This document shows positions 1,013 to 40,131 of a DNA stretch of 64,000 nt, piece after piece; the stretch's first letter is position 1; every line of letters begins with the position of its first letter. The stretch comes from a virus: IMG/VR virus record IMGVR_UViG_3300050122_000130, positions 1 to 64,000 of that record; one strand, given 5' to 3'. Below the pieces are notes generated by a model. The model was not told the origin of the DNA. It searched no databases and saw only the letters and a program-made list of their open reading frames with translations. The position numbers and the translations under genes are program-made.

Positions 1013-1057
1013 ATCCCTTGCTGCGGGTTGCAGCTAACCTCACGGAGACGACGACAA

Positions 1058-1591
1058 ATGCGACGCTTTTTTTTCACGATCCTATTCACCGCCGCGATCG
1101 GTGCCGCGCACGCGGCCGAAGCGCCGGTTCCAAAACCGGCTGGCCTGCCGGCGACAAACCTCACGCTGAACGATTGCCTGCTGATCCTTCAAGGTCTTCA
1201 GGCGATCGACGAGCATATCGTGGTGGTCGGCAAAGAGCCGAACCAGCAACTCGTCAAACAATCCTACGAATATGGGCCCGGCGGCTTCCGGCTCAATGTT
1301 CTTGCTCACAACATCCGCGTGCTGACCGACCTGCAGCAGACAGCCCAGGCCGAGCAACAGAAAATTCTCCGCGACATCTTACAAAAGATGCCGGCGAAGG
1401 ACGGCAAGCCGGCCACTGAAATTCCGGCAGGTACCGAGGAGGCGATCGAGTACGATCGCAAGCTGAAGGAACTGACCTCGGCGCCGTGCCTCGCCGATCT
1501 GACCCATTTCAAGGAACAGGATCTCAAGCTGGACAAGAACGAGCTCCCGGCCGCGGCGCTCGCCAACCTGGAAAAGATCAGGGACAAATGA
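1058..1591 (+). CDS. exported helical protein, resembling phage fibre-associated DUF1617-like proteins
   Basis: Signal MRRFFFTILFTAAIGAAHA-A; GGAG RBS; family resemblance by eye only. Confidence 0.6.
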   Translation: MRRFFFTILFTAAIGAAHAAEAPVPKPAGLPATNLTLNDCLLILQGLQAIDEHIVVVGKEPNQQLVKQSYEYGPGGFRLNVLAHNIRVLTDLQQTAQAEQQKILRDILQKMPAKDGKPATEIPAGTEEAIEYDRKLKELTSAPCLADLTHFKEQDLKLDKNELPAAALANLEKIRDK

Positions 1592-1803: not shown

Positions 1804-1911
1804 GTGTGGGAAAACAGGGGCGGGCGAGAACGGGTACAATACCCGAACTTGCAGCGCCATGCTGCACTTTCGTGAACATGGCGCGAACAGACGTGAACGA
1901 AAAGGAAAAGG

Positions 1912-1983
1912 TGCCAATGAGAGGACTTGAACCCCTGACCCCCGCTATGTGCAAGCGGTGCTCTACCACTGAGCTACGTTGGC
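1912..1983 (-). tRNA. tRNA-Val(CAC), atypical (G33, C6:A67 mismatch, 3' end CCT)
   Basis: Cloverleaf GCCAACG-TA-GCTC..GAGC-A-CCGCT-TGCACAT-AGCGG..AGGGG-TTCAAGT-CCTCT-CATTGGC-A. Confidence 0.75.
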
Positions 1984-2024
1984 GACGCCGGATGTAGACC
2001 GGCCCGCGGTCGGACGCAAGAGGG

Positions 2025-2102
2025 TGGTTGCAGGGGCGGGATTTGAACCCGCGGTGACCGCCTTATGAGGACGGAGCCTTAACCGGACTTGGCGACCCTG
2101 CG
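2025..2102 (-). tRNA. tRNA-Met(CAT), initiator-like (C1:A72 mismatch)
   Basis: CGCAGGG/CCCTGCA-A-CCA; loop CTCATAA; GCGGG-TTCAAAT-CCCGC. Confidence 0.85.
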
Positions 2103-2110
2103 ATAATTCG

Positions 2111-2185
2111 TGGCACCCGTGCTCAGATTCGAACTGAGGTTTTCGGCGTCAAAGGCCGACGTCCTAACCACTAAACGAAACGGGC
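2111..2185 (-). tRNA. tRNA-Gln(TTG) with a Glu-like 5' half
   Basis: GCCCGTT-TC-GTTT-AGTGGTTA-GGAC-G-TCGGC-CTTTGAC-GCCGA..CTCAG-TTCGAAT-CTGAG..G-CCA. Confidence 0.85.
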
Positions 2186-2210
2186 TCGTTTAGCGTTGCT
2201 GCTGAAGGGA

Positions 2211-2288
2211 TGGTGCTAGCGGCACGGATTTGAACCTGCGACCTGAGCTTTACAAAAACCCTGCTCTACCGGACTGAGCTACGCCAGC
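2211..2288 (-). tRNA. tRNA-Thr(TGT)
   Basis: GCTGGCG/CGCTAGC-A-CCA; loop TTTGTAA; one-nt bulge in the T stem. Confidence 0.85.
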
Positions 2289-5602: not shown

Positions 5603-5817
5603 GTCGTTTTTTCGTTAATGATTGCGATGGCTGCGCGACGCGTGATCGTCGCGTTGTGCCACACTGTCTCCGCTAAAGCCTTCGCATCTTCAAAGGTTCT
5701 GATCGGCGCGACTCCATAAGTACCGAGATCACCGTACATCCCGCCGATAGCTATTTTGAAATGCTCGTCTATCGCATCAAGAGCAAGCTCAGTCTCTGTT
5801 GGCCTGTCCACCATCAC
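5599..5817 (-). CDS. hypothetical protein
   Basis: Overlapping start/stop with both neighbours. Confidence 0.5.
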   Translation of the reverse strand: MMVDRPTETELALDAIDEHFKIAIGGMYGDLGTYGVAPIRTFEDAKALAETVWHNATITRRAAIAIINEKTT

Positions 5818-6683
5818 GCCATTCCATTCTCAGCGAGCGACTGTTTCAACCTGGCGACCACCTGCGGGCCCGGGATACCTCGGTCGACGAGCAGTCGATT
5901 CTTCTGCTCGAAGGTTCGGATCACGCCCATGGTACCACGGCCGATGTTGCCATCGACCAGGAGCGGCGTGCCTGGAACACGCAGCTTGTTCAAGCTGCTC
6001 TGAACCCACTCCGCATTGACGTTGACCATTTCCGGATGCGGCGGGATGACGATCGGCGCCGACACGGCGCCTTGCGATTGCTTGGCGATGCCGTCGGCGA
6101 ATGCTAGAGACGGATCCTGCTTCACAATCTCTTCGACCAGCGCCAGCGTGCCGAGCTGAGGATCGATAGTAGTGCTACTGAAGACGTGATCCCGGATGAA
6201 TTTTCCAGGTCGCTGCACCGTCGTGGCGCCGAACACGTACGGCGACGGAATACCTCGAGCTCGATAGCCCCAGCCATTCCACGCTTCGGATTCGTAGCAG
6301 AACCGCGCGAGCGACCAGCCACCGACATCCTTGTAGACCTGGTCCAGTCCATCGAGGTGCAACGCATCAAGACAACCATCGACAAAACCATCTGGCGTAT
6401 CAGTCCAGGGTCCGCGATTCAGAGGAACGATCGTGGTGCGCATTGTCAGGCGCTGACCGTTGCCGAGATAGCAATGCAGATTGCCTGTCATCTCGCGCTC
6501 GGCGAGTGCCATCAGAGCCGCGGCCGGGACATGCGTTAGCTGCTCGACGCGCTGATAGATCGCCTTGTCCTTGATGAGACTCTCGCAGGCCAGCGCGAGA
6601 GAATGCTCGCGCGACGGTTCGATGACCGCAGCTGAAGTCAAAGCCACATAGTTTGCTTCAAGCTTCTCGAATGTTAAAGCCAT
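5814..6683 (-). CDS. endolysin: lysozyme-family domain plus C-terminal peptidoglycan-binding domain
   Basis: ERE..YLGNGQ..EAWNGWGY..PSPY..DPQLG; LLVDGNIGRGT PG-binding motif. Confidence 0.85.
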   Translation of the reverse strand: MALTFEKLEANYVALTSAAVIEPSREHSLALACESLIKDKAIYQRVEQLTHVPAAALMALAEREMTGNLHCYLGNGQRLTMRTTIVPLNRGPWTDTPDGFVDGCLDALHLDGLDQVYKDVGGWSLARFCYESEAWNGWGYRARGIPSPYVFGATTVQRPGKFIRDHVFSSTTIDPQLGTLALVEEIVKQDPSLAFADGIAKQSQGAVSAPIVIPPHPEMVNVNAEWVQSSLNKLRVPGTPLLVDGNIGRGTMGVIRTFEQKNRLLVDRGIPGPQVVARLKQSLAENGMA

Positions 6684-6687
6684 GGCC

Positions 6688-8787
6688 CTACATCCTCAAT
6701 TTTACGGTCATATTATTGAGATTGAATGCCGTGTAGGTCCCGGCGTTGGCGTATTCAACGGTTTGGACAAAGTGGAATCCTGTCTGCGCAGAGAGACCTC
6801 CAGAATACCATAGCTCTCCGGTCACAGGTGACGATGAAAGCTGATTGAAGAATATGCCTTGGATATTCGCACTGATGCAACTAGTGCCGTCTAAGCAGAC
6901 GCCACCTTCAGTTCCAGACCCAGGAGAAGATGGAGTGTTCACTTCAAGTAAACCACTCACTAGAATCCCGTCTAGCGGCATTCCTGAAACGAAGGAAGTC
7001 CTGTTTCCTATAGAGTTGTTGAGCGGGCGGAATGTGGCTGTTCCATACGTCCATGACGTTGTTGCGTCGCCAGTCGTGCTGACGACATCAACTCTATTGT
7101 AATAATTCCAAACTCCTAGAACCCCAGGCGTACCGCCAACTGTGATTGCTCCGAATTGGAATGCCGTCAAGCCGTTGTTGGTTGCGAATACGGTCCCTAG
7201 ATAGGTCGCCTGATTGGCGGCAACGCTGCCGTAATTGGTAGAGCCGTTGAAGCAATTCGCGATTGAGTTTTTGTTTGTGACATATGACCTAGTCACAAAG
7301 TCGAGCTGGCTGTAGCCGGTGCCGCGCGCGGCGTTGCTGCCGCCTGTATCAGAAGCCCATCCGCCGCCGCCGCCGGTTGCCGACGACATCGCCATACAGA
7401 TGCGGTTAGTTCCAGAATGAACCCACCACACGTCGTAGACCTGAGAACCTACGACCTGCCCGGCGCTCGCCGCGGAGACCATCGCGTCCGTCACCTCGCA
7501 CGAACTAATCGTGTCGATCAGGTCGACGGAGCCATTGTAGTACGGTACCTGGCCGCCGACGTAGCAGTCATAGCGAAGCGTCCCTTGGTTGGCGCACGGA
7601 GAGCCGCTGCATGAGTTTTGCCCCATCACAGGGGTATTGGCTGCGAGAGTGATGCGGCCCTGCGGAGAAGGTACAGCTCCACTTATCGTGATCGTTCCTG
7701 TAGATGTAATCGGGTTGGTGCCGGAGAGAGCTATGCCACTGCCGGCAGCCAGAGTGACGCTGGTCACAGTACCAGTGCCGGTCAGAGTCGCCCACGACGG
7801 AGCGCCGGACGCGTTCTCCTGGAGGACCTGCGTCCCGGAGTTGTTGCCGGCTAGCAGAGCCCACGCCGTCCCTGTCCAGTACACGACGTCGCCTGCGCGC
7901 GTCGGAGTCGGAAGCAACGCAGCGATGGCTAGGGTGGCCGTCGCCTGCCCGGTGCCTCCATTGGCGATCGGAGTTATGCCGGTGACGCCACCATTGCCGC
8001 TCGCCGCCAGATTGACCGACGACATAAACGAACCGGAGATAGTTCCGGAGTTGATGGCCGATCCCGGTATAGATGGAGATCCTCCCAGCGAATAAGTGCC
8101 TGTGACGGTTCCGCTAAGTATTGGAGTGGTTATCGTCGGTGTACTGAGAGCCGCCGTAGTAATCGATGGCGAAATAGAGAGCGCAACATTTCCAGCGCCC
8201 GTGGTGGGAATATTACCCAACACACCAGCATTATTGGTCAGCACGTATCCGGAGGTACCAGACGCAACCGTCGTGGTTCCGATCGAGATCGTTCCGGCCG
8301 AGGCGGTGATCGTACAAGCCCCACCGAGAGTACACGTTTGTCCATTGACGGTCGTCGAGGCATTCGCCAAATCCGCGTTGGTGACGAGCCCGATCGCGGT
8401 GAATGACCCTGTGACAACCAGGTTAGATATGGTCCCTCCGGTGGCCGAGGCGAAAGGCCCCACTGTCCCACCATTGACCTGGGCGAATAGACCTGCCGCT
8501 GTCATCCACATATTGCCGTTAACCGGCGATGTCGGAGCGGTACCAGGCAGAATGCTAAAGCCGGCTACGCCTGCCGTTGAAGATGCTGTGACGAGAGGCC
8601 CCGTCATATTGCCGCCAGTAATCAAAAGCGGCGCGGCACCGAGATAATCCTGCTTGTTGATGAACAGTTGATTCCACTGTGCAGGAGTTAGCACTTGACC
8701 GAATGTCAAGTTGGGCGACGTCTGCGCAAACGCAGCGCCAACGGACAGCCACAGACCAACCGCGAACGCGGCAATCTTTTTCATCAT
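6688..8787 (-). CDS. distal tail fibre / receptor-binding protein with Sec signal peptide
   Basis: MMKKIAAFAVGLWLSVGAAFA-Q; fibre motifs PIANGGTG and GTVTSV; 10 Cys. Confidence 0.8.
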   Translation of the reverse strand: MMKKIAAFAVGLWLSVGAAFAQTSPNLTFGQVLTPAQWNQLFINKQDYLGAAPLLITGGNMTGPLVTASSTAGVAGFSILPGTAPTSPVNGNMWMTAAGLFAQVNGGTVGPFASATGGTISNLVVTGSFTAIGLVTNADLANASTTVNGQTCTLGGACTITASAGTISIGTTTVASGTSGYVLTNNAGVLGNIPTTGAGNVALSISPSITTAALSTPTITTPILSGTVTGTYSLGGSPSIPGSAINSGTISGSFMSSVNLAASGNGGVTGITPIANGGTGQATATLAIAALLPTPTRAGDVVYWTGTAWALLAGNNSGTQVLQENASGAPSWATLTGTGTVTSVTLAAGSGIALSGTNPITSTGTITISGAVPSPQGRITLAANTPVMGQNSCSGSPCANQGTLRYDCYVGGQVPYYNGSVDLIDTISSCEVTDAMVSAASAGQVVGSQVYDVWWVHSGTNRICMAMSSATGGGGGWASDTGGSNAARGTGYSQLDFVTRSYVTNKNSIANCFNGSTNYGSVAANQATYLGTVFATNNGLTAFQFGAITVGGTPGVLGVWNYYNRVDVVSTTGDATTSWTYGTATFRPLNNSIGNRTSFVSGMPLDGILVSGLLEVNTPSSPGSGTEGGVCLDGTSCISANIQGIFFNQLSSSPVTGELWYSGGLSAQTGFHFVQTVEYANAGTYTAFNLNNMTVKLRM

Positions 8788-8800
8788 GATGCTACTCATT

Positions 8801-9433
8801 TCAAGCTGTCGGGAAATCTGGCATTTTCCACGCATCGATATTGTCGAGCGTGAGATCTTCGATGTCACTGTGCATCTGTGCCGCAGCATGCTGAATCGCC
8901 GCGATCGCGCTTCGTCGCACATCTTGCTCTTGAAGGAACTTCTGATCTTCCGGAGAAAAGGATACTTGCGGCGGATTCGAAATTCCTACCGCAATGGCAA
9001 CTTTTTTGACTATACCAGCAGACTGCGTGGCATCGTTGGCTGCCTTGTGAGCCTCCGTCCGGATATTGTTTTCCTTTAGATTCAACATTCTGAGTTTACC
9101 AAACGGAACGATATTACTGATAGCGTTAGTTTCAGCGATCGACACTGTCCCGATCAAATCGTTTTTCTTGGTCCTCAGAATCTGATCCGCGGTCGGCATA
9201 TCATCGACAATCTTGAAGTCCGCTTCATTGTTTTCGTTGACGGATGCTCGAACAATAGGATGAGCATCTGGCCGCGGATATGCGACGTGTCGATCAATCG
9301 GAGAGACGTTGGAATTTTTATCCTGCTCAACGCGAGACATATGAGAACGCCAGTTTTTCATCTCAAATATATACGAGGCAATCTTCACCTCGAAATTTTC
9401 AGGAACTTGCGATTTCAAAACTGTGTTGGTCAT
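8801..9433 (-). CDS. tail fibre assembly/chaperone-like protein
   Basis: Lies between two fibre genes; helical with C-terminal I..W..PDF. Confidence 0.55.
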   Translation of the reverse strand: MTNTVLKSQVPENFEVKIASYIFEMKNWRSHMSRVEQDKNSNVSPIDRHVAYPRPDAHPIVRASVNENNEADFKIVDDMPTADQILRTKKNDLIGTVSIAETNAISNIVPFGKLRMLNLKENNIRTEAHKAANDATQSAGIVKKVAIAVGISNPPQVSFSPEDQKFLQEQDVRRSAIAAIQHAAAQMHSDIEDLTLDNIDAWKMPDFPTA

Positions 9434-10509
9434 AGCTTGAGATTCCAAAAGACAGTGATGTTTTGCGATACCGTATTATGCCCAGATCCAGATCCGGAGC
9501 TCGCGTTCGTCAGGGTGATGTTGGCGCCCGCCGTATTAGTCTGTGTCAGGTTGCCTATCTGCGGCTGAACTGCCGGGGCCGAATTACCCGAAAGGGCAGC
9601 GCCACCGGCTATAGCCAATGGACTAGAGAACCCATGTAGATGGCCAGGGTCGCTCAAAAAGTTGGCGTGAATATGTGAGCCGTTCTCGCTGCCTACCAAG
9701 GAATGAAGATTCTCACCAAGGACTGATGCTGGTGCCGTAGAGCTCCCCAATGTAACCGGGACTCCGACTAGCCTGGTGGTCGTCGGACCCAACATCGTAT
9801 CGATGCCGATCAGTCCGCGGCCGCGCATATCTGGCGTGGACAGGGCCTTGTTGGCATTGAAGTCAGCATCAGGATTAGCGCCTCGAGTCGAGGCTGCTCC
9901 AGTGCTGGTGAAGATCGGACAGGCCGTATTCGAGAAGTTCATCCAAATCGAACGGTAGGCCAGCAGAGTGTCTCCGTTGGCCCTTCCCGTGGCATTCGAA
10001 GCACCATTGCCGATCGTCAACGTGTTACATGCCACAAAGCCGGTCGGTACCGTCGATGAGAAAGACGGCACCGGCGTACCTGGCGCGATTCTACTTGGAT
10101 CGGGCACCCAATTCGCAGAGCCCGTAGAATCCGGATTGGTTGTATTGTTGTCTGCCGTCGACATCCAGAAGTCGCCTAGAACGACACTCGATTGAATGAT
10201 CGCTCCTTGCGGATATCCGCCGCTCGCGCCGCTGGCAAACGTGGCATCGTAATAGATCGGAGCACCGGCCTCGAACCACTGGCTCCATAGCGTGATCTGA
10301 TTCAGGATACCGTTGAAATCCTCGCCGAACGGCGGCACGCCGCCTGCCGCCACAGGCTGGAAATTAAGCGGCGGGAATCCATCTGTTAGAGAGGCTGCAC
10401 CACCCTGAATTCCGATCTGCGATGCTTGCGGTATCGCCCTGATAAAGCCGCCGCCGGCGCCGGCGGCAAAAGCGATGTTGAAGCGCGGAGGTGTCGAAGC
10501 TCTCAACAT
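9430..10509 (-). CDS. proximal tail fibre with collar domain
   Basis: ASLTDGFPP..GGVPP..DFNGIL N-terminus; PTGFVACN..PDMRGR collar. Confidence 0.85.
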   Translation of the reverse strand: MLRASTPPRFNIAFAAGAGGGFIRAIPQASQIGIQGGAASLTDGFPPLNFQPVAAGGVPPFGEDFNGILNQITLWSQWFEAGAPIYYDATFASGASGGYPQGAIIQSSVVLGDFWMSTADNNTTNPDSTGSANWVPDPSRIAPGTPVPSFSSTVPTGFVACNTLTIGNGASNATGRANGDTLLAYRSIWMNFSNTACPIFTSTGAASTRGANPDADFNANKALSTPDMRGRGLIGIDTMLGPTTTRLVGVPVTLGSSTAPASVLGENLHSLVGSENGSHIHANFLSDPGHLHGFSSPLAIAGGAALSGNSAPAVQPQIGNLTQTNTAGANITLTNASSGSGSGHNTVSQNITVFWNLKL

Positions 10510-10511
10510 TT

Positions 10512-11177
10512 TTATAGCACCTGAACGACTGAGGAGGAGACACCAACCGGCTTCGGAAGGACTCCGGATTGTTCGAGAATCGCGAGTTCTACCGATGTCA
10601 GCAGAAAACCAAATTGATAGGTCATCGTCATGTTGTTCCCGTCTGTGACGAAAGCGTTGCCGCCTCGAGCTGGAAACAGGTTGAGCAAAATCTGATTGAT
10701 CGACTTGATAGATCCGTCAGAGATATTTGCGAGAGCCTTCGCCAAAATTAAAATGCGAAAAGCACTGTCCGATAGACTGAAGTTTGATGACAACGGAACG
10801 CCAGCATAAAACGGCGATTGACCGAAAGGATCCGCGCTGATCGTGGTTGCTTCCTCAAACCCGAAATATCTCTGACTTCCAGGGATAAATAGAGTTCGAG
10901 TCACGCCGACGATCGTTCCCCAAATATCGAGTCCGATTCCTTGAGCACTGGATATGTCCCGCATGAAATCGATAAAATTATCGATGTTTTGCGTTTGATC
11001 CAAGTAAGCAGAGAAATTCTGAATCAACGTCGTGATAATCGGGCTGTTGGCATATTGACTGATTACAGTGTCCCAAACGTCGAACAGCTCGATGTCGCCG
11101 ATCGGCGAAATTCCAATCACAAAACTTCCGATACTATTGGACCCAGCGACAAGCTGGTTTAGGTCCGGTCCGCTCAT
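10512..11177 (-). CDS. baseplate wedge protein (DUF2612-like)
   Basis: ISQYANSP..AQGIGLDIWGTIVGVTR; follows baseplate J. Confidence 0.85.
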   Translation of the reverse strand: MSGPDLNQLVAGSNSIGSFVIGISPIGDIELFDVWDTVISQYANSPIITTLIQNFSAYLDQTQNIDNFIDFMRDISSAQGIGLDIWGTIVGVTRTLFIPGSQRYFGFEEATTISADPFGQSPFYAGVPLSSNFSLSDSAFRILILAKALANISDGSIKSINQILLNLFPARGGNAFVTDGNNMTMTYQFGFLLTSVELAILEQSGVLPKPVGVSSSVVQVL

Positions 11178-11231
11178 TTGCTCGCACCCACATACTGGTG
11201 TAGACCGTATCCCTCAAGAACGGAGGAGCAT

Positions 11232-11684
11232 ATGGGTGTAGAAGCGTGGCCATTAAGGTTTTCCAGCAAGGTTGACATTCGAGGTCCTGACGAATGCTGG
11301 CCGTGGCTGGCAGTTCTCATTCCTGGCGGATACGGGCAATTTTGGTTTGAGGGCCGCATGGTAAATGCCCATGTTATGGCCGTCAGGTTTGCCGGCATCG
11401 AGATCCCGGATGGGCACGTCGTTCTGCACGATTGCGATTTCCGCAGATGCTGCAATCTGAACCACCTGATTGTAGGCACCCAAGCCGACAACATGAAAGA
11501 TATGGTCCACAAAGGAAGATCCGCCAAAGGCACTATGCACGGAAGCGCCATCCTCACAGATGACGATGTCAGAGAAATACTTAAGAAAAACGAAACCGCG
11601 GCTGAAGCCGCCGCAAAATATGGCGTATCGAGAGCTACGATAAACGATATCAGGCAGCGACTTTCGTGGACCCACATCACGTAA
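11232..11684 (+). CDS. free-standing HNH homing endonuclease with C-terminal HTH, antisense to the tail operon
   Basis: CWPW..GYG..AH..VLHDCD..CCNLNHL..GT..DN; GGAGG RBS. Confidence 0.9.
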   Translation: MGVEAWPLRFSSKVDIRGPDECWPWLAVLIPGGYGQFWFEGRMVNAHVMAVRFAGIEIPDGHVVLHDCDFRRCCNLNHLIVGTQADNMKDMVHKGRSAKGTMHGSAILTDDDVREILKKNETAAEAAAKYGVSRATINDIRQRLSWTHIT

Positions 11685-13098
11685 GTGTCACAACGATATT
11701 GCCGGCGTTGACCGTCGGCACCTGGTTGATGTTGACAGTTACCGAATTCGCCGTTGGCTTCACGCCGAACATCTGCTCGCTACTAACCGTTTGAGTGAGA
11801 TTCACCACCCACGCGGTACCGGATCCGGACTGGATGACGGTTCCTGGCAACACATTCCCTGACGCATCGACCACAGTCTGACCGATCGCGATCGTGCCCG
11901 TCGTCGCGGAGGTCGTCAGCGCTGTGCCGGCGATGACGCCGGTGAATGTTGCACCCGGAGAATTAGACGATCCTATCGTGAGAGAAATGATTTGCGCCCA
12001 CGTTCCAAGCGCAGCGATCGGCGCGTAGAACCGGCTGGCAAAGATCGTCGATCCGATCCTAGCTCGAGGACCCCCATCGGCGCCGGCGAACGCTGCGATG
12101 ATAGCATTCTGAATCAGCGTCGCTGCGTTGGATGGGACCTGTGGATTGTTGGCGATGTTGACCGCAAACAAGATCGGGAGCGCCGCCGGCGTCTCATAGG
12201 TGACGTTGTAGGAGGGATAGGGCGGCGAATATCCGGACCTGGTATCCTGAACCACCACCGTCGTGTTGCCGTTATAGGCGCACCCGGGAGCCTTCTTCGA
12301 CCAGATCGCTGTTGCAACAGCAGACTCCGACCCACCGACAACAGCCACATAGAGCGAATTGGCTGCCAGCGATACGCCGCCAATCGTCGCCGGCGTCGGA
12401 CTGTCGTTTTCGGTGACATAAGCATCGAGCACGCCTGCGACGCTAAGAACGGCGCCGAGAACAGAAGGCAGCGAACCTATCGAATTCACACCAACAGATT
12501 CAGCCATTCTCTCGGCGAAGGCCGTGGTACTTTCAGTGTCGTTTCCGACCACACCGTCAGACAAATTGTTGATGCTGTCCCAGCCCGGGATAGTTTGATA
12601 GATCACGTTCAGCGTGCCAGCGGGGCACACGATCGGGCCAGGTACATTGCACGCAAACGGTAGGACAATCGATCCACCTACCGGAATGGTCCCGCCTTGG
12701 GTGCAAGTGTAGATGTTACCGTCTTCAGCGAGGCCCAACGCGCCGGCGTTGATGACAACTCCGGTGCCTCCGGAACATGTTGCCTGAACCACAGTGGGCT
12801 CTGACGAATTGCGCTGCAGGAAATAGAGCTGAGCGATCGCGTCCTGAAAAACGCCGGATGCAAAATTAGGATTCGTCTGGTTGGTGAGAGCGATGAAAGT
12901 ATCGTTCGCTTGCGCGATAACCGCTGTCAGGCTGGATGCTAACTGTCCTTGTGGCGTGCTAAGCGATTGGTTGAGTCCTCCCCCGAAGGCCGCATCGAAA
13001 TCGGCCTGCACGCCCGTCAGAATGTCCTGCTGAGTCGGACCTGTAAATCCGGTTGCAGTGTTGAACGTGATCGGCGGGACATTGGTGGTGACTGCCAT
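11677..13098 (-). CDS. baseplate J-like protein
   Basis: STPQGQLASS, ASGVFQDAI, IPGWDS motifs; synteny. Confidence 0.9.
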   Translation of the reverse strand: MAVTTNVPPITFNTATGFTGPTQQDILTGVQADFDAAFGGGLNQSLSTPQGQLASSLTAVIAQANDTFIALTNQTNPNFASGVFQDAIAQLYFLQRNSSEPTVVQATCSGGTGVVINAGALGLAEDGNIYTCTQGGTIPVGGSIVLPFACNVPGPIVCPAGTLNVIYQTIPGWDSINNLSDGVVGNDTESTTAFAERMAESVGVNSIGSLPSVLGAVLSVAGVLDAYVTENDSPTPATIGGVSLAANSLYVAVVGGSESAVATAIWSKKAPGCAYNGNTTVVVQDTRSGYSPPYPSYNVTYETPAALPILFAVNIANNPQVPSNAATLIQNAIIAAFAGADGGPRARIGSTIFASRFYAPIAALGTWAQIISLTIGSSNSPGATFTGVIAGTALTTSATTGTIAIGQTVVDASGNVLPGTVIQSGSGTAWVVNLTQTVSSEQMFGVKPTANSVTVNINQVPTVNAGNIVVTLT

Positions 13099-21029: not shown

Positions 21030-21446
21030 TTAGTTTGTGCTGACGCCGAAATTGATCACAACGCCAGAGCCGGCATTGGATGAATCGTTGTCGGCGATGC
21101 CGCCGACTAAACAAAAGCCAAGGCCGAGACCGAACAAATAACCTAGCGTTGATGGGATCACCGCACCTCCGCCTGAGCTCGATGTCCCGTAAGGCACCGG
21201 AATACTCAAAACAGGTACATCGGTGCCGGCAATCGGTGCCGTGGCCTTGTTGAATAGCTTCAAATAATAGATCACCGCCGTGGTGTTGATCGGCACTATA
21301 TCATGGAGGACTACCTTGCCAGCCTGCACCAGTGTGCAGTTCGTCGATACCGTGCTGAGATAATGCAGCGGAGCGCTCTGCGCGTGGGCGCGAATTGTGC
21401 CTAGCGATAGAAAAACCAAGCACACCAGGATATTGATCGCCTTCAT
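21030..21446 (-). CDS. exported small beta-sandwich protein
   Basis: Signal ..IRAHA-QS; YLKLFNKATAP.AGT..P resembles the C-terminal domain of 26816..28648. Confidence 0.75.
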   Translation of the reverse strand: MKAINILVCLVFLSLGTIRAHAQSAPLHYLSTVSTNCTLVQAGKVVLHDIVPINTTAVIYYLKLFNKATAPIAGTDVPVLSIPVPYGTSSSGGGAVIPSTLGYLFGLGLGFCLVGGIADNDSSNAGSGVVINFGVSTN

Positions 21447-21469
21447 AGTTTTTCCTTCTCTAGAGATAG

Positions 21470-21877
21470 TCACCAGTTTGTATATCCGGACGGCACGGTG
21501 AAGGCATAGGGCGTGGCACCAAAGTCCGTAGTGTTGGCGTCACCTCCAGACGAATTGAGAGAGACTATCGCGATGAACTGCAGCGCGGAGATCGTGCCTT
21601 CATACTGGATCGGTGCGTCAGTCACCGCGACCGGCTGGCCGACCGTCGCTGTCGGAGCTACGCCATCATCGCGATATCTAACTGCCTGGGTCTCGGCCTT
21701 GATAATCGCCAGCGATGGGACGCCATTGCAGGCAGCCGGGATCGTCAGCGACTGGACGGTCGTCACCGTGACCTGCAGGTAGCCGCACGGCACGCGACGG
21801 ATGCCGCTGTCGGCCATCGCGGAGCAGGGCAGCAGCCAAGCAGCCGCCAGCACCGCTAGAAGGGCGGTTCGGAGCAT
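21470..21877 (-). CDS. exported small phage protein, possibly chimeric
   Basis: GAAGGA RBS; signal ..SAMA-DS; VRYRDDGVAPTATVG. Confidence 0.7.
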   Translation of the reverse strand: MLRTALLAVLAAAWLLPCSAMADSGIRRVPCGYLQVTVTTVQSLTIPAACNGVPSLAIIKAETQAVRYRDDGVAPTATVGQPVAVTDAPIQYEGTISALQFIAIVSLNSSGGDANTTDFGATPYAFTVPSGYTNW

Positions 21878-22096
21878 GAGATTTCCTTCGGGATTTGTGG
21901 TAGATTTTACTCGTGGTCGCTGCTTAGCTCGAAGCGTGCCGCGGTCAAACACTGTTGGCCAAGGACTCCCATAGCCCCTCCCCGCCTGTAGATTTCAGGT
22001 TGTCAAGACGGGATATTTCGCTTCGAGCGACTGGCGCGTGCAGCGCAACCTGCGGTAACGGTTCCATCGGGGGATTGCCTCCCGGGGGAATTAAAG

Positions 22097-22261
22097 TTGA
22101 GTGCCAAACGTTCGGCTCGCCTACTTAAACCGGTCGAAAAGCCGCAGCCGGTTGATAGCCAGAAAGCTAAGGTGATCACACCGGCAAAAGACGAAAGCGT
22201 TGATGAGTTTGCCAGAAAGTCGTGCTTCGATGACGATGGGCAGTTTACTCTTGGGTCATAA
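22097..22261 (+). CDS. 54-aa antisense ORF (not in the ORF track)
   Basis: GGGGGA RBS, TTG start, open to TAA; fills the only large gap in the cassette. Confidence 0.4.
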   Translation: MSAKRSARLLKPVEKPQPVDSQKAKVITPAKDESVDEFARKSCFDDDGQFTLGS

Positions 22262-22264
22262 GGT

Positions 22265-24655
22265 TCACGGCAAATGACTTACCAAGATCGAGGTCTGTGG
22301 ATTGTCCGTGAACGGACCGCTCGGATAGCCGCTCGGTACAGCACTCAGGATGTAACTCGTCGGTGAATAGAATGCGGAATCGCCACCCACCCAGTAAGAC
22401 CAGCCCATATAAGGACCGGACGCCGAGACTTCGTTGGCCGAGAAATAATTGAACAGGTTGGTGGCGTCAGGCGGGCAACTGGAATCCTGCGACCATCCGG
22501 TTTCCCCGATGAATATCTTGACGCTGTTGGTGACGGCCCATGACGTTGCGGCTGTCATCGGCGCAGAGCCGTTGCCAGCACAAGCCGCATGTGTCCCCGA
22601 GAAATCGCTGTCGAGATATTCGTGCATCTCGTAGGCGACCTGCAAGCCTGCAGGTGGCGTATATCCGGCCCATGCCGTGCTGTTGCCGCAGGATACCCAA
22701 GAGTGCCCGCCGGTGTAGCAGGTGCCCTCAATCATCACGAGCTGTGCCGTCGTGACGCTCGCAATCGCGGTATTGACAGCGGTCTGTGCGGTAAACCATT
22801 GCGCCGCCGTCTGCACATTTGGTTCGTTCATCACGTCAAAAATGACGTTCGGATAGTTCTTGAACTTGGTAGCCATCCGGGTCCAGAAATCGACGAGTTG
22901 GGCAGTCGCTTCCGAACTGATGCCGGGATAGATGATCGAGTAATTCAGCAGCGTGTCGTTGACCTGTCCGAACAGATGATCATCAATCATGACGTACATA
23001 TTTTGCGAAAAGGCATAATCAATCACCGCCTTCATCGCGGTAAGATTGGTCTGCGTCCCTGAAGTCGCGAACGCCGATTGCGCGGGCTCGTCGCACCGTC
23101 CGACCAATCCGTCTGGGCTGGCGAGCCGGGGGCAGTTCGTGCTGTTGCGGACGAATGAAACCGGGTCCAAAGGGCCGTAGACATCGGGTTGCAACCGAAG
23201 CTGATGGATGGGCATCCGGATCAGGCCCATGCCTTTACCGCCCCAATAGGCCGTGTTCGTGTTTTCCGGGTAGATATAATTATATTGAGATGACGAGGGG
23301 TATGTGAACTCCGCACCCGAGATATTGACTCCCTTGTAATTGATCGGTGTGAAGGTCCCGCTCGGCGCGGCGAACGCCGTCTCTGCGGGGGCAACCGCTT
23401 TGACGGTGATAACGGTATTGGCATCGGTGGATAAGGCAGTCGAAGAACTTGTGACCAATAGCGTAATCGTTTCGGTTTGCGTGGCCGTAGCGCTTCCGGG
23501 GTTATAGACGATCGATTGCAGTTCCGAAGTAATAGTAGCTGGCGTGGCCGAGGCCAGAGTATAGGGACCGCTCCCGCTCAATCCGGTTCCGGTAAGCGTT
23601 CCCCCGGCAGACCCGGAGAGTGTCAATGTAGCGCTGTCTGTGTTCCCGACATCGGCGACAGTCACATTAACTGACTGGAACGTGGATGGCGCACCGCCGC
23701 CATGGATGAATGGCATATTGGACTTGCCGACTACCGTCACAGTCGGGCCTGCCCCGGCAATCTGTGGCGGCAGGGCGGATAGCGGATCTGGCAACGTTGT
23801 GGAGTAATAGGTATTGTCCGTAGTGTTGAAATTTCCGATCACGGTCGGCGTCAGTTCGTCATAGGTGACGATGATCTCCTGCCACGACCCGATATAGTCC
23901 TGACCACCGAATCTGAAATGATTGACATCAAACTCTGTACCGCCTCCAGCGGGAGCGAACGTGAACGCCGCGACGCTAGAGCTAGCGACCAGAGAACCAT
24001 TCTGGAAACCGTTGACGTTATTGGTCGAATAAAGATCGCTGAATGAGCCCGCCAGATTAGCCCAGCCCGTATTTGAACCGAGACTGACGGATGTCCCGCC
24101 GCTATTCGGTGCCACCAGGTAAGCATTCGATAGCATCCGGAACTGGAGGCTGAAGATGTCCTGGGACAGCAACACTCCAGAAGTTGCGTTCATTCTTGCG
24201 ATCACCGTTTGCAGTCCCTGCCCGGAACTCGGCGAATTGCTGATCATGTATTCGCCAGCCGCCACGGTCACTTCTGGATACCCGAGTGAATTGACCAGCG
24301 TCAGGATCGGCGCGGCGCCCATGCTGGAGGTGTCGAGATGATTTGCGGACGGGCTTTGGTCGTAGATGATTGCAATCGCAATCGATCGCGAGGTGGCCCA
24401 GTCCTGAATGGCTTGCCGTGGCAGGTTTCCAGCCGCATTGAAGTTAAAATCCATCTGCGCACTGTCTGACGCGCGCTGCAAACGAATGGCCGGGCCGCTA
24501 TAGGTCGGGTAAATCTTGCGAAGCGCGTAGATGTTGGAAACGTGGGTCGCGGTTGCGAAATTCCCCAATGAGACGGACGAGCCATGTAGGCCGATCCCGG
24601 CGGCCGACACCCACGCAATGAGGATGAGCAAGCAGGCGCTAACTGCTTTGCGCAT
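22265..24655 (-). CDS. exported GH5 endoglucanase with N-terminal LamG/arabinofuranosidase-B-like and Ig-like domains
   Basis: GVNISGAEF, MNEP (acid/base), HEYLD, GETGW (nucleophile); YALRK..Y.G..IR..R N-domain; signal peptide. Confidence 0.9.
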   Translation of the reverse strand: MRKAVSACLLILIAWVSAAGIGLHGSSVSLGNFATATHVSNIYALRKIYPTYSGPAIRLQRASDSAQMDFNFNAAGNLPRQAIQDWATSRSIAIAIIYDQSPSANHLDTSSMGAAPILTLVNSLGYPEVTVAAGEYMISNSPSSGQGLQTVIARMNATSGVLLSQDIFSLQFRMLSNAYLVAPNSGGTSVSLGSNTGWANLAGSFSDLYSTNNVNGFQNGSLVASSSVAAFTFAPAGGGTEFDVNHFRFGGQDYIGSWQEIIVTYDELTPTVIGNFNTTDNTYYSTTLPDPLSALPPQIAGAGPTVTVVGKSNMPFIHGGGAPSTFQSVNVTVADVGNTDSATLTLSGSAGGTLTGTGLSGSGPYTLASATPATITSELQSIVYNPGSATATQTETITLLVTSSSTALSTDANTVITVKAVAPAETAFAAPSGTFTPINYKGVNISGAEFTYPSSSQYNYIYPENTNTAYWGGKGMGLIRMPIHQLRLQPDVYGPLDPVSFVRNSTNCPRLASPDGLVGRCDEPAQSAFATSGTQTNLTAMKAVIDYAFSQNMYVMIDDHLFGQVNDTLLNYSIIYPGISSEATAQLVDFWTRMATKFKNYPNVIFDVMNEPNVQTAAQWFTAQTAVNTAIASVTTAQLVMIEGTCYTGGHSWVSCGNSTAWAGYTPPAGLQVAYEMHEYLDSDFSGTHAACAGNGSAPMTAATSWAVTNSVKIFIGETGWSQDSSCPPDATNLFNYFSANEVSASGPYMGWSYWVGGDSAFYSPTSYILSAVPSGYPSGPFTDNPQTSILVSHLP

Positions 24656-25857
24656 CACTGAATCCACGCCGGGTTGACGTTGCCGGAATTATACACCGCT
24701 GGGTAGCCCGTGCTACCAGTCGGATGAACGTCGCTCCATGGTGAGTTGGAGGCTGTACCGTTCACGATCCAGATGCCATCGCCTTGAACGAATTCAAGCG
24801 CGCCAGCAACTTCGAAGTAGTGTGGTGTCAACCCACGGACCCAAGTGTTGTAAATCTGCTTCTGGGCGTTGCAGCCGCATGGAGTCTGGCCGGCGGTGGT
24901 TGAATAGTTATCGGAACTGGAGCCGCCGGACGGCCCAATCGTGATCGAAATCAGCGGACCATAAGAAGCCAGCGCCGAAGTCATCGATGCGACGTAGCCT
25001 TCGACCGTGGCCGCGCTTTCACCAAAGTTGAAATCGTTGACGCCATACTCGTTGATGAAACTAGAAAAATATTGCGCGAGTTGGATGCGCTTGGCGTGGC
25101 CAGAAACCCAACTTCCAATGCTGTCACCGGGGATACCATAATTGGCAGTCGGAACCGTGGATATGATTGATGGGACAATTACGCCTCCGTTCGGCGTATC
25201 GCCCGTACTCGTGCCGCTCTCGCCTATGCCATAGGCTATGCTGTCGCCCCAGACAGCAACGGCAGGATGGGTATGGTCCCCCGCAATAACGACCGCCCCG
25301 AACTGAAATCCATTTGACGTGTTGCTGGGAAAGCCGCCTCCCATCGTGTAATTGGGAACTGTCGTGCCAAATTGTGTCACGCCCTGGTATAGACTGGTGC
25401 CAGTCTCATACTGGTTCATCCCAGGAATCACGTTTGCCGAGTTCGAACACCACACATAAATCTCGACCTCGGAATTTGCAGCAACCGAAACGGAGATGAC
25501 ATCAGAAGTTAAAAAGTCACCTGTCGTGGACCCAGACGCATTCCCCCCGAACGTGAACTGGTTGAATGGCCCGGTGACCGCAGGATATCTGGCGGATGCT
25601 GAGCAGGTGAGAGTGCCACCAGTGTTTGTTTCGCCGACAACATTTGGCAGCACGATCTGCAAATGGTTGACAGCGTAAATATTTTGCGTGGCCTGATAGG
25701 ATAAAACCTCTGCCGCACTGACCGACGTAACGGGATAATTTGTGGCCGATACCGTCTGCCGAAGTCCTGATGGAGCGTTGGCGCTCCCGTGTATCCAATT
25801 CGCGCTAACCAGCGAAACAATGGCGAGAATTGCGAACCTGATAACGGCGCCTAGCAT
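24655..25857 (-). CDS. exported SGNH/GDSL esterase
   Basis: GDSI, GVND and DVHP blocks; hydrophobic N-terminus. Confidence 0.85.
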   Translation of the reverse strand: MLGAVIRFAILAIVSLVSANWIHGSANAPSGLRQTVSATNYPVTSVSAAEVLSYQATQNIYAVNHLQIVLPNVVGETNTGGTLTCSASARYPAVTGPFNQFTFGGNASGSTTGDFLTSDVISVSVAANSEVEIYVWCSNSANVIPGMNQYETGTSLYQGVTQFGTTVPNYTMGGGFPSNTSNGFQFGAVVIAGDHTHPAVAVWGDSIAYGIGESGTSTGDTPNGGVIVPSIISTVPTANYGIPGDSIGSWVSGHAKRIQLAQYFSSFINEYGVNDFNFGESAATVEGYVASMTSALASYGPLISITIGPSGGSSSDNYSTTAGQTPCGCNAQKQIYNTWVRGLTPHYFEVAGALEFVQGDGIWIVNGTASNSPWSDVHPTGSTGYPAVYNSGNVNPAWIQ

Positions 25858-26816
25858 GAGTTTGCCAATCCCCAATAGAGATACTGGTTATGACAGAGCG
25901 CGGTCCGGTTGGTTGGCGAAAAAGCTATTGGCCACTCACCGCCTTCTTCAAAACTACCTGTTTGAAAAACAGCATCGTCGGTCGAGGCGAATAAAGTCGT
26001 TTGACTCTGCGGGGTACAGAAATTGGCGGTAGCCGTATTGTCGGTCCCGTTGATATTCAAAACGATACCGGCGCTTGAAAATCCCGTCTGATAGGCATTT
26101 GCCACACCGAGAGCAATGGCGCCGCTGGCAAAAGATCCTGTTCCGCAACCAGAGCCTATAAAAGCCGAGGGTGAGCCATTGCCCGTTTGCAAACCTAAAC
26201 CGGCGCCATTGCTCAGGACTCTCCCATATATGATACCGAAATTTGATTGGGGTGAGTTGCTTTGCGCGACGACGGACCATGATATCGGCAGCGTCGTATT
26301 GGAATCGCTAGCAGTGAGGAATGGACTGTTTCCGGCTACGCCCTGAACACAAGGAAAAGTCCCAACGCAATTAAACACCAGCGTCGGCATATTAGCCAGC
26401 GTGGCTTGAAGCAGATGAATGCCGTTGCCGGTCTGATCATAGAGCTTGGCCACACTGCATCCAGCGTGTGTGACCGTGCAGAACGTGGTGACACTAACGG
26501 TTGGCGATCCGGTTGGGCAAACTACCGCACTGAGATTAGCTGCGCCGCTGGTCCCAATGGGGATGGTGCATGTTGCAGTGCCGGTTGATGTATCAACGAT
26601 ATCCGCAGCGGGATTGGTGCCCGGTACGGCATAGGCTGCGTTATAGGCCCTAAGGCCGTACCAATTCGAGGCGCTGGCGATAACGTCGCCGGGTCCGGTG
26701 TAGCCGCTTGCTGCGGGAGTTTTGGAACTCCCGGCCCCCGTCAGCGTCATCTGAGCCGATGACGGCCCAGCGACCGCCAGCAGGCATGCCAGCGCTATCG
26801 CGAAAAGGCCGCGCAT
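25851..26816 (-). CDS. exported LamG/arabinofuranosidase-B-like lectin-fold protein
   Basis: Signal ..PSSA-Q; WYGLRAY, V.KLYDQTGNG; 10 Cys. Confidence 0.75.
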   Translation of the reverse strand: MRGLFAIALACLLAVAGPSSAQMTLTGAGSSKTPAASGYTGPGDVIASASNWYGLRAYNAAYAVPGTNPAADIVDTSTGTATCTIPIGTSGAANLSAVVCPTGSPTVSVTTFCTVTHAGCSVAKLYDQTGNGIHLLQATLANMPTLVFNCVGTFPCVQGVAGNSPFLTASDSNTTLPISWSVVAQSNSPQSNFGIIYGRVLSNGAGLGLQTGNGSPSAFIGSGCGTGSFASGAIALGVANAYQTGFSSAGIVLNINGTDNTATANFCTPQSQTTLFASTDDAVFQTGSFEEGGEWPIAFSPTNRTALCHNQYLYWGLANSC

Positions 26817-39413: not shown

Positions 39414-40131
39414 TTTTGTTTTTCCATCTATTTGGCGGTCGCGTGCCAAGGCGCTTATGCGCTGCGCTCATCTTGGCTTTAGTTTCATCGGAATGCTTGC
39501 GGCCAATGCTTAGCTGTCTCAGCATTTCCATATGTTCGGGAGACGAACGAAGACCGCTAGTGTTTCTTGTCGCACTCATTTTTTGGCGAGTTTCCAACGA
39601 AACCTTGCGACCTGTTTGAGTCTGCGATCTTTTCAGATTGCTCTCTGGAGTAATAATTTGATTAGCTCTTGCAACTCGGATTTTATCGCGAGTTTTTTCA
39701 GAAAGAGGTATCCCGGCTCGACTACTCAATACCAAACGGCCTGCATCCGTCATGATGTGCGGTTTCGACATTTTTTTGAGCGTTTCCGCTGAATGTCGTC
39801 TGCCTGCGCGTTTAGCTGCGACCTCTGGTGAAGACATCGGGCTGGTCTCTCCGCCCAATCCGACATTGTAGCCTTGTGATCGGTCAGTCGTCCGAAAGAA
39901 CCTAATGAACTCTATTTCTAGGCTCAGTATTTCGTGCTTCTCACCAAGCGCCAGAACTTGAGGAACCAAGTTGTTAGTCCCGTAGCGCATGATAGCCTGA
40001 TGAACGGGTAGATTAGATCCTCGTCTCGCATCACTGCAATGCCTCATCCAACGATGTCTTATCGTTTTTGAGGTAATGCCAAAATATCGCTTTCCATTCG
40101 GAAATTCGATCACATAGAGTAGGTAAGCCAT
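39370..40131 (-). CDS. GIY-YIG homing endonuclease with NUMOD3 repeats
   Basis: LLY..YFGIT..RW..H..AI..YG..E..GYN..GG; repeated GR.HS.ET..KMS. Confidence 0.9.

What the first reader, a model, noticed from the sequence alone, without database searches (positions are those of the whole stretch)
6688..8787. Distal tail fibre with a cleavable Sec signal and five potential disulfides
Seen: MMKKIAAFAVGLWLSVGAAFA-Q precedes typical fibre motifs. There are 10 Cys, several in close pairs (CTLGGAC, CSGSPC, CLDGTSC). The adjacent proximal fibre has no signal. Known: tailed virions assemble in the reducing cytoplasm. Inference: this receptor-binding protein folds in the periplasm and docks on particles only at lysis.
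Basis: partly seen in the sequence, partly recalled or inferred. Interest (0 to 1): 0.8.

Follow-up and report, generated by a model that had tools for sequence, protein, structure and literature searches.

The report
Phage tail fibre with export signal
A soil phage encodes, between its tail-fibre and lysis genes, a host-recognition fibre that carries a bacterial secretion signal and five paired cysteines. It therefore almost certainly folds outside the cytoplasm where the virus particle is built, a route I could not find described for tailed phages.

Summary
The gene lies on the minus strand (8787..6688, 699 aa). It starts with a textbook Sec/signal-peptidase-I leader (MMKK, a 17-residue hydrophobic core, AFA|Q). 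The mature part has 10 Cys.

- **Leader is conserved:** 109 of 120 homologues carry such a leader, and 99 of those 109 have an even Cys count.
- **Cysteines pair up:** the ten Cys form five pairs that are gained and lost together.
- **Fibre-like build:** the C-terminal third folds confidently into a phage-RBP-like domain plus a TNF/C1q-like lectin head.
- **Location:** the gene is tightly packed in the late operon of a roughly 95-kb integrase-free myovirus: baseplate, fibre, orf215, this gene, then a putative endolysin.
- **Leaders sit on ordinary virion proteins:** in relatives, the same kind of leader precedes established virion-docking modules, namely the baseplate-fibre N-domain and the podophage tailspike N-module. 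Cultured phages have these modules without a leader.

Export and oxidative folding are therefore well supported. Joining the virion only after the holin opens the inner membrane is the best-fitting inference, but it is untested. A non-virion exported role remains possible.

I found no published description. Other agents of this scan have noted the same pattern on other genomes; those notes are not independent evidence.

The parts
6688..8787 (-). Whole CDS of the exported fibre (699 aa plus stop)
   Evidence: ORF and translation. Same protein in the protein database with a start 16 codons upstream. 381 homologues at E<=1e-3.
8725..8787 (-). Sec-type signal peptide, residues 1-21 (MMKKIAAFAVGLWLSVGAAFA), predicted cleavage before Q22
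   Evidence: Sequence. 109/120 homologues have an equivalent leader. The commonest -3..-1 triplets are AFA, ASA and ALA, and +1 is Gln in 51.
8593..8724 (-). Conserved mature N-terminal module, residues 22-65 (QTSPNLTFGQVLTPAQWNQLF..KQDYLG...GGNMTG)
   Evidence: The same motif follows the leader in syntenic relatives L008, L011, L012, L013, L016, L029, L034, L053, L092, L095 and L098, with very different C-terminal parts. The model has one short helix at 35-43.
7678..8592 (-). Fibre shaft, residues 66-370, with repeat motifs and the C152-C158 loop (NGQTCTLGGACT)
   Evidence: Residues 54-148 match tail fibres of Rhizobium phage Paso and Stenotrophomonas phage StenR_269. The 105-210 unit is repeated in many viral contigs. 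Monomer pLDDT is low, as I would expect for a trimeric shaft.
7102..7677 (-). Most conserved domain, residues 371-562 (PQGRLTL...), with Cys pairs 393-398, 408-430 and 464-512
   Evidence: pLDDT 89.8 when folded alone. The best structural neighbours are all phage RBP/TssK shoulder-type domains (Mtd 1yu0 Z 7.7, phage 1358 RBP Z 5.5), which is a lead only. Cys covariation.
6691..7101 (-). TNF/C1q-like jelly-roll head, residues 563-699, with the C631-C637 loop
   Evidence: pLDDT >90. VIA hits: PLTL lectin 9ib6 Z 12.9 (rmsd 2.3, 125 aligned), cyanophage A4 and A-1(L) fibre tips Z 10.2 and 9.0, Bdellovibrio Bd2734 Z 8.0. Foldseek hits to BC2L-C, PLTL and the phi812 spike knob.
8801..9448 (-). orf215, leaderless protein of unknown function between the two fibre genes (likely start at the ATG at 9433)
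   Evidence: No Pfam or PHROG hit. A homologue sits directly upstream of the leader-bearing fibre in L004, L053, L092 and L095.
9430..10509 (-). Leaderless 359-aa baseplate-attached tail fibre
   Evidence: PHROG tail-fibre families, 2.7e-33. The N-domain is shared with tail fibres of cultured myoviruses such as Burkholderia phage PE067. The C-part resembles the Pam5 tail fibre.
10512..13098 (-). Baseplate wedge genes: DUF2612 (10512-11177) and Baseplate_J (11677-13098)
   Evidence: Pfam 1.3e-51 and 4.4e-11; PHROG baseplate wedge.
5814..6683 (-). Putative endolysin with a C-terminal PG_binding_1 domain and no leader; its start is 4 nt after the fibre's stop
   Evidence: Pfam 2.4e-6 and PHROG endolysin 4.3e-5. 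N-terminus read.

Best explanation
The gene encodes an accessory receptor-binding tail fibre that is made as a Sec pre-protein.

**Shown by sequence and comparison:**
- a canonical cleavable leader;
- a conserved about 45-residue mature N-terminal module;
- a fibre shaft;
- a conserved RBP-like domain;
- a TNF-like, probably sugar-binding, head;
- five Cys pairs.

**Inferred mechanism:**
1. Late in infection the unfolded chain is exported by host SecYEG and cut by signal peptidase I before Gln22.
2. It trimerises in the periplasm.
3. The host Dsb system locks it with five disulfides: 152-158, 393-398, 408-430, 464-512 and 631-637.
4. Fibre-less or partly fibred particles assemble in the cytoplasm.
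5. When the holin opens the inner membrane for the leaderless endolysin, the two pools mix.
6. The mature N-terminal module then docks on the baseplate or fibre region of the particle.

Export and oxidation are the well-supported part, which I rate at about 0.85. Virion docking at lysis is the inferred part. The stated confidence is for the whole chain.
For: **Leader**
- Canonical in the target.
- Kept in 109/120 homologues although its sequence diverges.

**Oxidative folding**
- 99/109 homologues have even mature Cys counts.
- Cys pairs are gained and lost together: 393/398 is 13 both, 47 neither, 0 single; 408/430 is 51/8/1; 464/512 is 57/2/1.
- In this phage, eight other leader-bearing proteins all have even Cys counts. 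Among leaderless ORFs with at least one Cys, 29 of 72 do.
- Leaderless complete homologues of the C-domain lack the pairs: Pam5 gp18 has 0 Cys and P0089 has 1.

**Fibre/RBP nature**
- Matches to annotated tail fibres and a tail spike.
- TNF-like head, Z 12.9.
- RBP-shoulder-like domain.

**Virion link**
- The gene is 13 nt after orf215 and 4 nt before the lysin, with no promoter or terminator signal above chance.
- In L016, L029 and L098 a leader-bearing homologue sits between Baseplate_J and DUF2612.
- The leader is grafted exactly in front of known virion-docking modules. The podophage tailspike N-module starts at Met in P4282, PBR31 and X14 but follows a leader in L005 and L089.
- The baseplate-fibre N-domain is leaderless in the window and in PE067. 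It carries a leader in L011, L013, L034 and L098, where I saw no leaderless second copy of that fibre in the stretch fetched.
- 22 of 120 database homologues of that domain carry the leader, and 20 of those 22 also have a new Cys pair.

**Lifestyle**
- No integrase was found in the 95-kb record.
Against: - **No direct evidence of virion presence.** No close homologue exists in 50,697 cultured phage records, so no proteomics can be consulted.
- **Topology.** Particles are cytoplasmic, and docking would have to happen in the short interval around lysis or after dilution.
- **The fibre is accessory.** About half of the relatives retrieved through DUF2612 alone have only a leaderless fibre.
- **Other exported proteins in the same phage.** It also exports non-fibre enzymes (GH5, SGNH), so a general programme of exported accessory proteins is possible.
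- **The leader/Cys association is not independent.** In the baseplate-fibre family it is essentially one clade plus one second gain, so its Fisher P overstates independence.
- **Possible internal start.** 15 of the 22 leader-bearing baseplate fibres keep Met right after the cleavage site, which could allow an internal start and a cytoplasmic isoform.
- **Tools.** SignalP was not available, and the leader call rests on my own heuristic.
Confidence: 0.48

Rival explanations
1. Exported but not a virion part. The fibre-like lectin is secreted into the periplasm, and perhaps beyond, of the infected cell. There it binds or masks an envelope glycan or receptor. Possible purposes are limiting loss of progeny on debris, excluding other phages, or acting with the exported GH5/SGNH enzymes on the host's polysaccharide coat.
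For: - Export and oxidation evidence as above.
- The fibre is accessory among relatives.
- The same genome carries a cassette of exported glycan-active enzymes.
- Cell-encoded exported fibres with TNF-like tips exist, namely the Bdellovibrio MAT fibres (PMC10769870; fold match).
- Exported genes next to fibre genes are known, such as lambda lom and T5 llp (own knowledge).
Against: - Co-packed in the late structural operon without its own promoter signal, in an integrase-free phage.
- A conserved N-terminal module with variable C-terminal parts is the classic RBP pattern.
- Leaders sit on intact virion-docking modules. In L011, L013, L034 and L098 they sit on the only baseplate-fibre copy seen in the fetched stretch.
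- No lipobox.
Confidence: 0.27
2. The leader does not lead to productive export of the functional pool. It could be inefficient or bypassed, or it could act as a transient membrane tether. In that case the fibre that matters folds and joins the particle in the cytoplasm, and any disulfides form only after release into air-exposed soil water.
For: - This is the simplest fit to textbook assembly.
- Met is retained right after the leader in 15/22 leader-bearing baseplate fibres, which hints at alternative starts in that sister family.
- The database gene call uses a different start for the target.
Against: - The target has no start codon near the cleavage site. The first internal Met is in the GGNMTG motif, about 75 residues into the mature protein.
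- L034, L011 and L098 have Glu or Leu (CTC/CTT) at +1.
- The n/h/c pattern, including the AxA site, is conserved over wide divergence. That is hard to explain without signal-peptidase processing.
- The even-Cys rule holds only for leader-bearing proteins of this phage.
Confidence: 0.15
3. Chance or annotation artefact: a hydrophobic N-terminus produced by a wrong start, on an ordinary cytoplasmic fibre.
For: The ORF has three possible starts (8922, 8835, 8787).
Against: - All three starts include the leader.
- The upstream extensions overlap the preceding gene.
- More than 100 homologues begin at the equivalent MKK.
Confidence: 0.03

Closest known systems
Leaderless tail fibres and tailspikes of cultured phages (Burkholderia phage PE067 tail fibre; Ralstonia phage P4282, Xanthomonas phage PBR31 and Shewanella phage X14 tailspikes; Pseudanabaena phage Pam5 gp16/gp18)
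   Same: - Same gene position after Baseplate_J and DUF2612.
- Shared shaft segments, C-terminal domain (Pam5 gp18, 32% over residues 377-683) and N-terminal docking modules.
   Different: - They start directly at Met with the docking module, and the ones I counted are Cys-poor: PE067 has 2 Cys and Pam5 gp18 has 0.
- The window protein and its family add a cleavable leader and paired Cys.
Bdellovibrio bacteriovorus MAT (mosaic adhesive trimer) fibres (PMC10769870)
   Same: - Signal peptide, then a conserved N-terminal module, a trimeric fibre and a variable tip.
- Two MAT tips (Bd2734, Bd2439) are TNF-like with disulfides.
- Bd2734 matches the head of this protein (Z 8.0; Foldseek prob 1.0; paper read).
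   Different: - MATs are chromosomal genes of a predatory bacterium and decorate its own surface.
- Their post-signal domain is about 130 aa and beta-rich; here the conserved module is about 45 aa.
- No sequence homology was shown, and this gene sits in a phage tail/lysis operon.
Filamentous-phage pIII (Ff phages)
   Same: A receptor-binding virion protein made with a Sec leader and folded with disulfides in the periplasm (own knowledge).
   Different: Filamentous phages assemble at and through the envelope without lysis. Here the particle is a cytoplasmic contractile-tailed virion. There is no homology.
Sec-dependent late proteins of tailed phages (signal-peptide and SAR endolysins, spanins)
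   Same: They show that host Sec export still works late in infection and is used by the lysis cassette right next to this gene (own knowledge; SAR endolysin example PMC3765740).
   Different: They are lysis proteins, not virion or receptor-binding proteins.
Exported genes beside fibre genes (lambda Lom, T5 Llp, T1/phi80 Cor)
   Same: Phage-encoded envelope proteins with leaders, located in or next to the fibre region (own knowledge).
   Different: They are small OMPs or lipoproteins, not fibre-like. This protein has no lipobox and shows no promoter signal of its own.

Membership tests
Sec/signal-peptidase-I secretory pre-proteins | Positively charged n-region, 10-20 residue uncharged hydrophobic h-region, small residues at -3 and -1 | tested here: met
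   MMKK / IAAFAVGLWLSVGAAFA / A-F-A|Q. The same pattern occurs in 109/120 homologues by my own heuristic.
Sec/signal-peptidase-I secretory pre-proteins | Experimental export and cleavage, or a trained predictor such as SignalP | not testable with these tools
   No SignalP and no bench work. Needs a reporter fusion or N-terminal proteomics.
Disulfide-bonded envelope proteins (Dsb substrates) | Even Cys number and co-varying Cys pairs in the exported part | tested here: met
   - 10 Cys in the target, and 99/109 homologues are even.
- Pairs 393/398, 408/430 and 464/512 co-vary.
- In-phage control: 8/8 leader-bearing proteins are even against 29/72 leaderless ORFs.
Disulfide-bonded envelope proteins (Dsb substrates) | Disulfides actually present | not testable with these tools
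Needs non-reducing gels or MS.
Phage tail fibre / receptor-binding protein | Encoded in the tail/baseplate module and homologous to known fibres | tested here: met
   - Context.
- tblastn to the Paso and StenR_269 tail fibres and the Pam5 tail spike.
- Synteny in more than 10 viral contigs.
Phage tail fibre / receptor-binding protein | Trimeric receptor-binding head | tested here: inconclusive
   The TNF/C1q-like jelly roll (Z 12.9 to a trimeric lectin; cyanophage fibre tips Z 9-10) fits, but only a monomer was modelled.
Phage tail fibre / receptor-binding protein | Physically present in the virion | not testable with these tools
   No cultured relative carries this protein. The phage is known only as a metagenomic record.
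Bdellovibrio MAT fibres | Conserved about 130-aa beta-rich domain directly after the signal peptide | tested here: inconclusive
   Here the conserved post-leader module is about 45 aa with one short helix. It was not compared directly with MAT sequences.
Exported lipoprotein genes next to fibre genes (Llp/Cor type) | Lipobox with Cys at +1 | tested here: not met
   The cleavage region is AFA|Q, and the first Cys is residue 152.

The most novel reading that the evidence does not exclude
A widespread group of soil phages, spanning myo- and podovirus types, exports its receptor-binding fibres and spikes through host Sec. The proteins fold and are disulfide-locked in the periplasm. They are mounted on cytoplasm-built particles only once the holin has breached the inner membrane. 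This would be a two-compartment assembly pathway for tailed phages.
Probability: 0.45. Interest if true: 0.88.

Novelty: new variant of a known kind. Interest (0 to 1): 0.72.

Why it matters
Tailed-phage particles are taught as assembling wholly in the reducing cytoplasm. A large family of fibres and spikes with working export signals and paired cysteines would change that picture in several ways:

- the last and host-range-defining assembly step could take place in or via the periplasm;
- phage infectivity would depend on host Sec, signal peptidase and Dsb functions;
- soil phages would gain oxidatively cross-linked, probably tougher, adhesins;
- gene callers and RBP predictors trained on leaderless fibres would need to account for these proteins.

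It is directly testable with reporter fusions, virion N-terminomics and dsbA hosts once a member is cultured. Homologues of the neighbouring fibre occur in Rhizobium and Agrobacterium genomes.

Tried and rejected
Contexts came from the search for related loci instead.
- **Family and sequence searches on the target gave nothing:** Pfam and PHROGs and a PDB sequence search.
- **Megablast** of 15 kb against cultured phages found no match.
- **Foldseek-PDB** on the 365-565 domain found nothing at E<=1e-3. The VIA hits to RBP/TssK shoulders are middling (best Z 7.7) and are kept only as a lead.
- **ESM Atlas** gave only weak viral fibre-like leads of 0.84 or less.
- **Cluster look-up** gave no names.
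- **No phage-encoded DsbA or integrase** was found.
- **Promoter and terminator scan** was not above shuffles.
- **Five literature searches** and three follow-up reads found nothing on Sec-signal RBPs of tailed phages. A DsbA phage-screen paper attributes its effects to host receptors.
- **Pam5 'tail spike'** is a predicted annotation, not a proteomic one.
- **The Fisher test** for leader versus Cys pair in the baseplate-fibre family (P 1.7e-18) is rejected as a measure of independent events. The tree shows one main clade plus one second gain.
- **'Proximal/distal halves of one fibre'** is not adopted, because the 359-aa fibre looks complete and a gene intervenes.
Full report
**What is there.** The finding's coordinates hold a single gene on the minus strand, 8787..6688 (699 aa).
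- The longest ORF reaches 8922, and a database gene call starts 16 codons upstream.
- Both extensions overlap the upstream gene, whose stop is at 8801. Homologues begin at the equivalent MKK, so 8787 (ATGATG) is the likely start.
- The N-terminus MMKKIAAFAVGLWLSVGAAFA|QTSPN has every feature of a Sec/signal-peptidase-I leader. These are two Lys, a 17-residue uncharged core with a Gly near its end, and A-F-A at -3..-1.
- There is no lipobox and no twin-arginine motif.
- The mature chain has ten Cys: 152, 158, 393, 398, 408, 430, 464, 512, 631 and 637.

**Context.** The window is the first 64 kb of a 95,488-bp IMG/VR virus record, estimated about 90% complete.
- On the minus strand one long late operon runs in this order: terminase, portal, protease, major head protein, a cassette of leader-bearing proteins, sheath, tube, tape measure, hub and Baseplate_J.
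- It continues with DUF2612, a 359-aa tail fibre, orf215, the target, and a PG_binding_1 protein that is the probable endolysin.
- The target starts 13 nt after orf215 and ends 4 nt before the lysin. Promoter- and terminator-like sites are not above shuffled expectation.
- No integrase and no DsbA gene was found.
- The tail module is related to those of cultured myoviruses of Burkholderia, Acetobacter, Xanthomonas, Acinetobacter and others, which carry one leaderless fibre at this position.

**Is the leader real?** A search of 5.8 billion proteins gave 381 homologues.
- Of the best 120, 109 pass a simple leader heuristic: net positive start, an uncharged hydrophobic run of at least 10 residues, and small residues at -3/-1.
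- By eye, several of the 11 failures are truncated or have an acidic start.
- The leader sequences differ widely, but the pattern is kept, including AxA sites and Gln at +1 in 51 cases.
- SignalP was not available, so this is my own criterion.

**Are the cysteines disulfides?**
- 99 of the 109 have an even Cys count after the leader, with counts from 4 to 22. The sequences are related, so the binomial P is only indicative.
- In a 60-sequence alignment the target's Cys columns behave as pairs. 393/398 is present together 13 times, absent together 47 times and never single. 408/430 is 51/8/1 and 464/512 is 57/2/1.
- Within this phage, eight other convincing leader-bearing proteins all have even mature Cys counts. 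Among leaderless ORFs with at least one Cys, 29 of 72 do.
- Two complete leaderless homologues of the C-terminal domain lack the pairs: cyanophage Pam5 gp18 has 0 Cys, and P0089 has 1 Cys with N, G and A at positions 408, 430 and 512.

**Is it a fibre?**
- Residues 54-148 match internal parts of annotated tail fibres (Rhizobium phage Paso, Stenotrophomonas phage StenR_269). Residues 377-683 match the predicted tail spike of Pam5.
- AlphaFold2 with a 60-sequence alignment gives low confidence for the shaft, as I would expect for a trimer modelled as a monomer. Confidence is above 90 pLDDT for 371-699.
- Residues 563-699 are a TNF/C1q-like jelly roll. The best matches are the trimeric lectin PLTL (Z 12.9, rmsd 2.3, 125 aligned), cyanophage A4 and A-1(L) fibre tips (Z 10.2 and 9.0), BclA/ExsF, and the Bdellovibrio fibre tip Bd2734 (Z 8.0).
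- Residues 365-565 folded alone reach pLDDT 89.8. Foldseek finds nothing. The whole-PDB aligner lists only phage RBP/TssK shoulder-type domains at the top (Mtd Z 7.7, phage 1358 RBP Z 5.5), which I treat as a lead.
- The protein therefore reads as leader, short conserved N-module, shaft, and a compact RBP-like unit with a lectin-type head.

**Relatives and the link to the virion.** In IMG/VR, 85 stretches encode relatives.
- At least ten are syntenic, running sheath to hub to Baseplate_J to DUF2612 to fibre. All carry a leader on the target homologue.
- In L016, L029 and L098 a leader-bearing homologue sits between Baseplate_J and DUF2612.
- A set retrieved through DUF2612 alone is unbiased with respect to the target. 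About half of the loci with enough downstream DNA have leader-bearing fibres (L092, L095, L098, L104). The rest have only a leaderless fibre, so the gene is accessory.
- orf215 precedes the leader-bearing fibre in the window, L004, L053, L092 and L095.

**Leaders on known docking modules.** Leaders are found directly in front of N-terminal modules that are established virion-docking parts elsewhere.
- The podophage tailspike N-module starts at Met in Ralstonia phage P4282, Xanthomonas phage PBR31 and Shewanella phage X14. It follows a 20-23-residue leader in L005 and L089.
- The baseplate-fibre N-domain is leaderless in the window, PE067 and L012. It carries a leader in L011, L013, L034 and L098, tightly coupled to the DUF2612 stop, and I saw no leaderless second copy of that fibre in the stretch fetched.
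- Among 120 database homologues of this domain, 22 have the leader. 20 of those 22 have Cys at two positions where 96 of the 98 others have neither.
- A tree shows this is one clade of 23 plus a second, Cys-less gain of two, so it counts as about two events, not 22.
- 15 of the 22 keep Met right after the cleavage site. Either the native N-terminus is preserved for docking or an internal start gives a cytoplasmic isoform. L034, L011 and L098 have no start codon there, and the target has none near its cleavage site.

**Mechanism.**
- Well supported: the protein is exported by Sec, cleaved, and oxidatively folded.
- Inferred: it is an accessory RBP that meets the particle only when the holin opens the inner membrane. 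The endolysin here has no leader or SAR segment, so it needs release through the membrane, which would also mix the two compartments.
- The conserved N-module with variable C-terminal parts, the operon position, and leaders on intact docking modules favour a virion role.
- Against it stand the lack of any proteomic evidence, the accessory distribution, and the co-existence of exported GH5 and SGNH enzymes in the same phage.
- My estimates: exported virion fibre 0.48, exported non-virion factor 0.27, leader not decisive for the functional pool 0.15, artefact 0.03.

**Comparison with what is known.** I found no paper describing Sec-signal RBPs of tailed phages.
- The nearest working analogue is the Bdellovibrio MAT fibre family. 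These have a signal peptide, a conserved N-domain, a trimeric fibre, and TNF-like tips with disulfides on two members (PMC10769870). They are cellular, not viral.
- Filamentous-phage pIII is an exported, disulfide-bonded receptor-binding virion protein of an unrelated assembly type (own knowledge).
These notes agree with my reading but are not independent evidence.

**Verdict.** This is a new variant of a known kind (a tail fibre), with an implied and untested two-compartment assembly route.

Noticed in passing
window 21030-28648 (minus strand), also 29586-30263 and 1028-1591 (+): A cassette of six consecutive leader-bearing genes lies between a head gene and the tail genes: 610 aa, 321 aa, a 406-aa GDSL/SGNH-like protein, an 800-aa protein with a GH5 cellulase domain and an arabinofuranosidase-B-like part, 160 aa and 147 aa. 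All have even mature Cys counts. The phage exports far more than the one fibre.
   Followed up: partly
window 11178-11684 (+ strand): An HNH-type homing-endonuclease-like ORF (LHDCD..CCNLNHL..GT..DN motif, read by eye) lies on the opposite strand between Baseplate_J and DUF2612. This is the same intergenic site where relatives L016, L029 and L098 carry leader-bearing fibre genes.
   Followed up: no
window 44325-45176 (minus strand): A 273-283-aa protein has a twin-arginine-like start (MPELNRRAFLTGVAAAAIAPALP). The Pfam TAT_signal match is weak (E 0.021), and the protein has 3 Cys.
   Followed up: no
window 36873-39449 and 46579-50085 (minus strand): The prohead protease ORF (858 aa) has a NUDIX-like N-terminal part, and the portal ORF (1168 aa) has a long C-terminal extension. 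Other first-reader notes on this genome discuss these.
   Followed up: no
window 1910-2288 (minus strand): A cluster of four tRNA genes (Val-CAC, Met-CAT, Gln-TTG, Thr-TGT) lies just beyond the lysis region.
   Followed up: no
window 8801-9448; L004 8257-9102, L092 11891-12304, L095 11798-12463, L053 3-224: A leaderless 215-aa protein with no family match always sits directly upstream of the leader-bearing fibre in the closest relatives. It could be an adaptor on the particle or an export or assembly chaperone.
   Followed up: partly
P0155-P0245 (homologues of window 9430-10509); L013 8748, L034 7227, L011 8883, L098 10631: Leader-bearing versions of the baseplate fibre keep Met immediately after the predicted cleavage site in 15 of 22 cases. 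They also carry a new Cys pair (NC...GGC) in the conserved N-domain.
   Followed up: yes
L004 14018-14830, L005 11623-12402, L008 13557-14240, L013 16240-16968: Relatives encode leader-bearing proteins near their lysis genes. By eye, from their Gly/Tyr-rich sequence only, these look like outer-membrane beta-barrels, reminiscent of lambda Lom. This was not tested.
   Followed up: no
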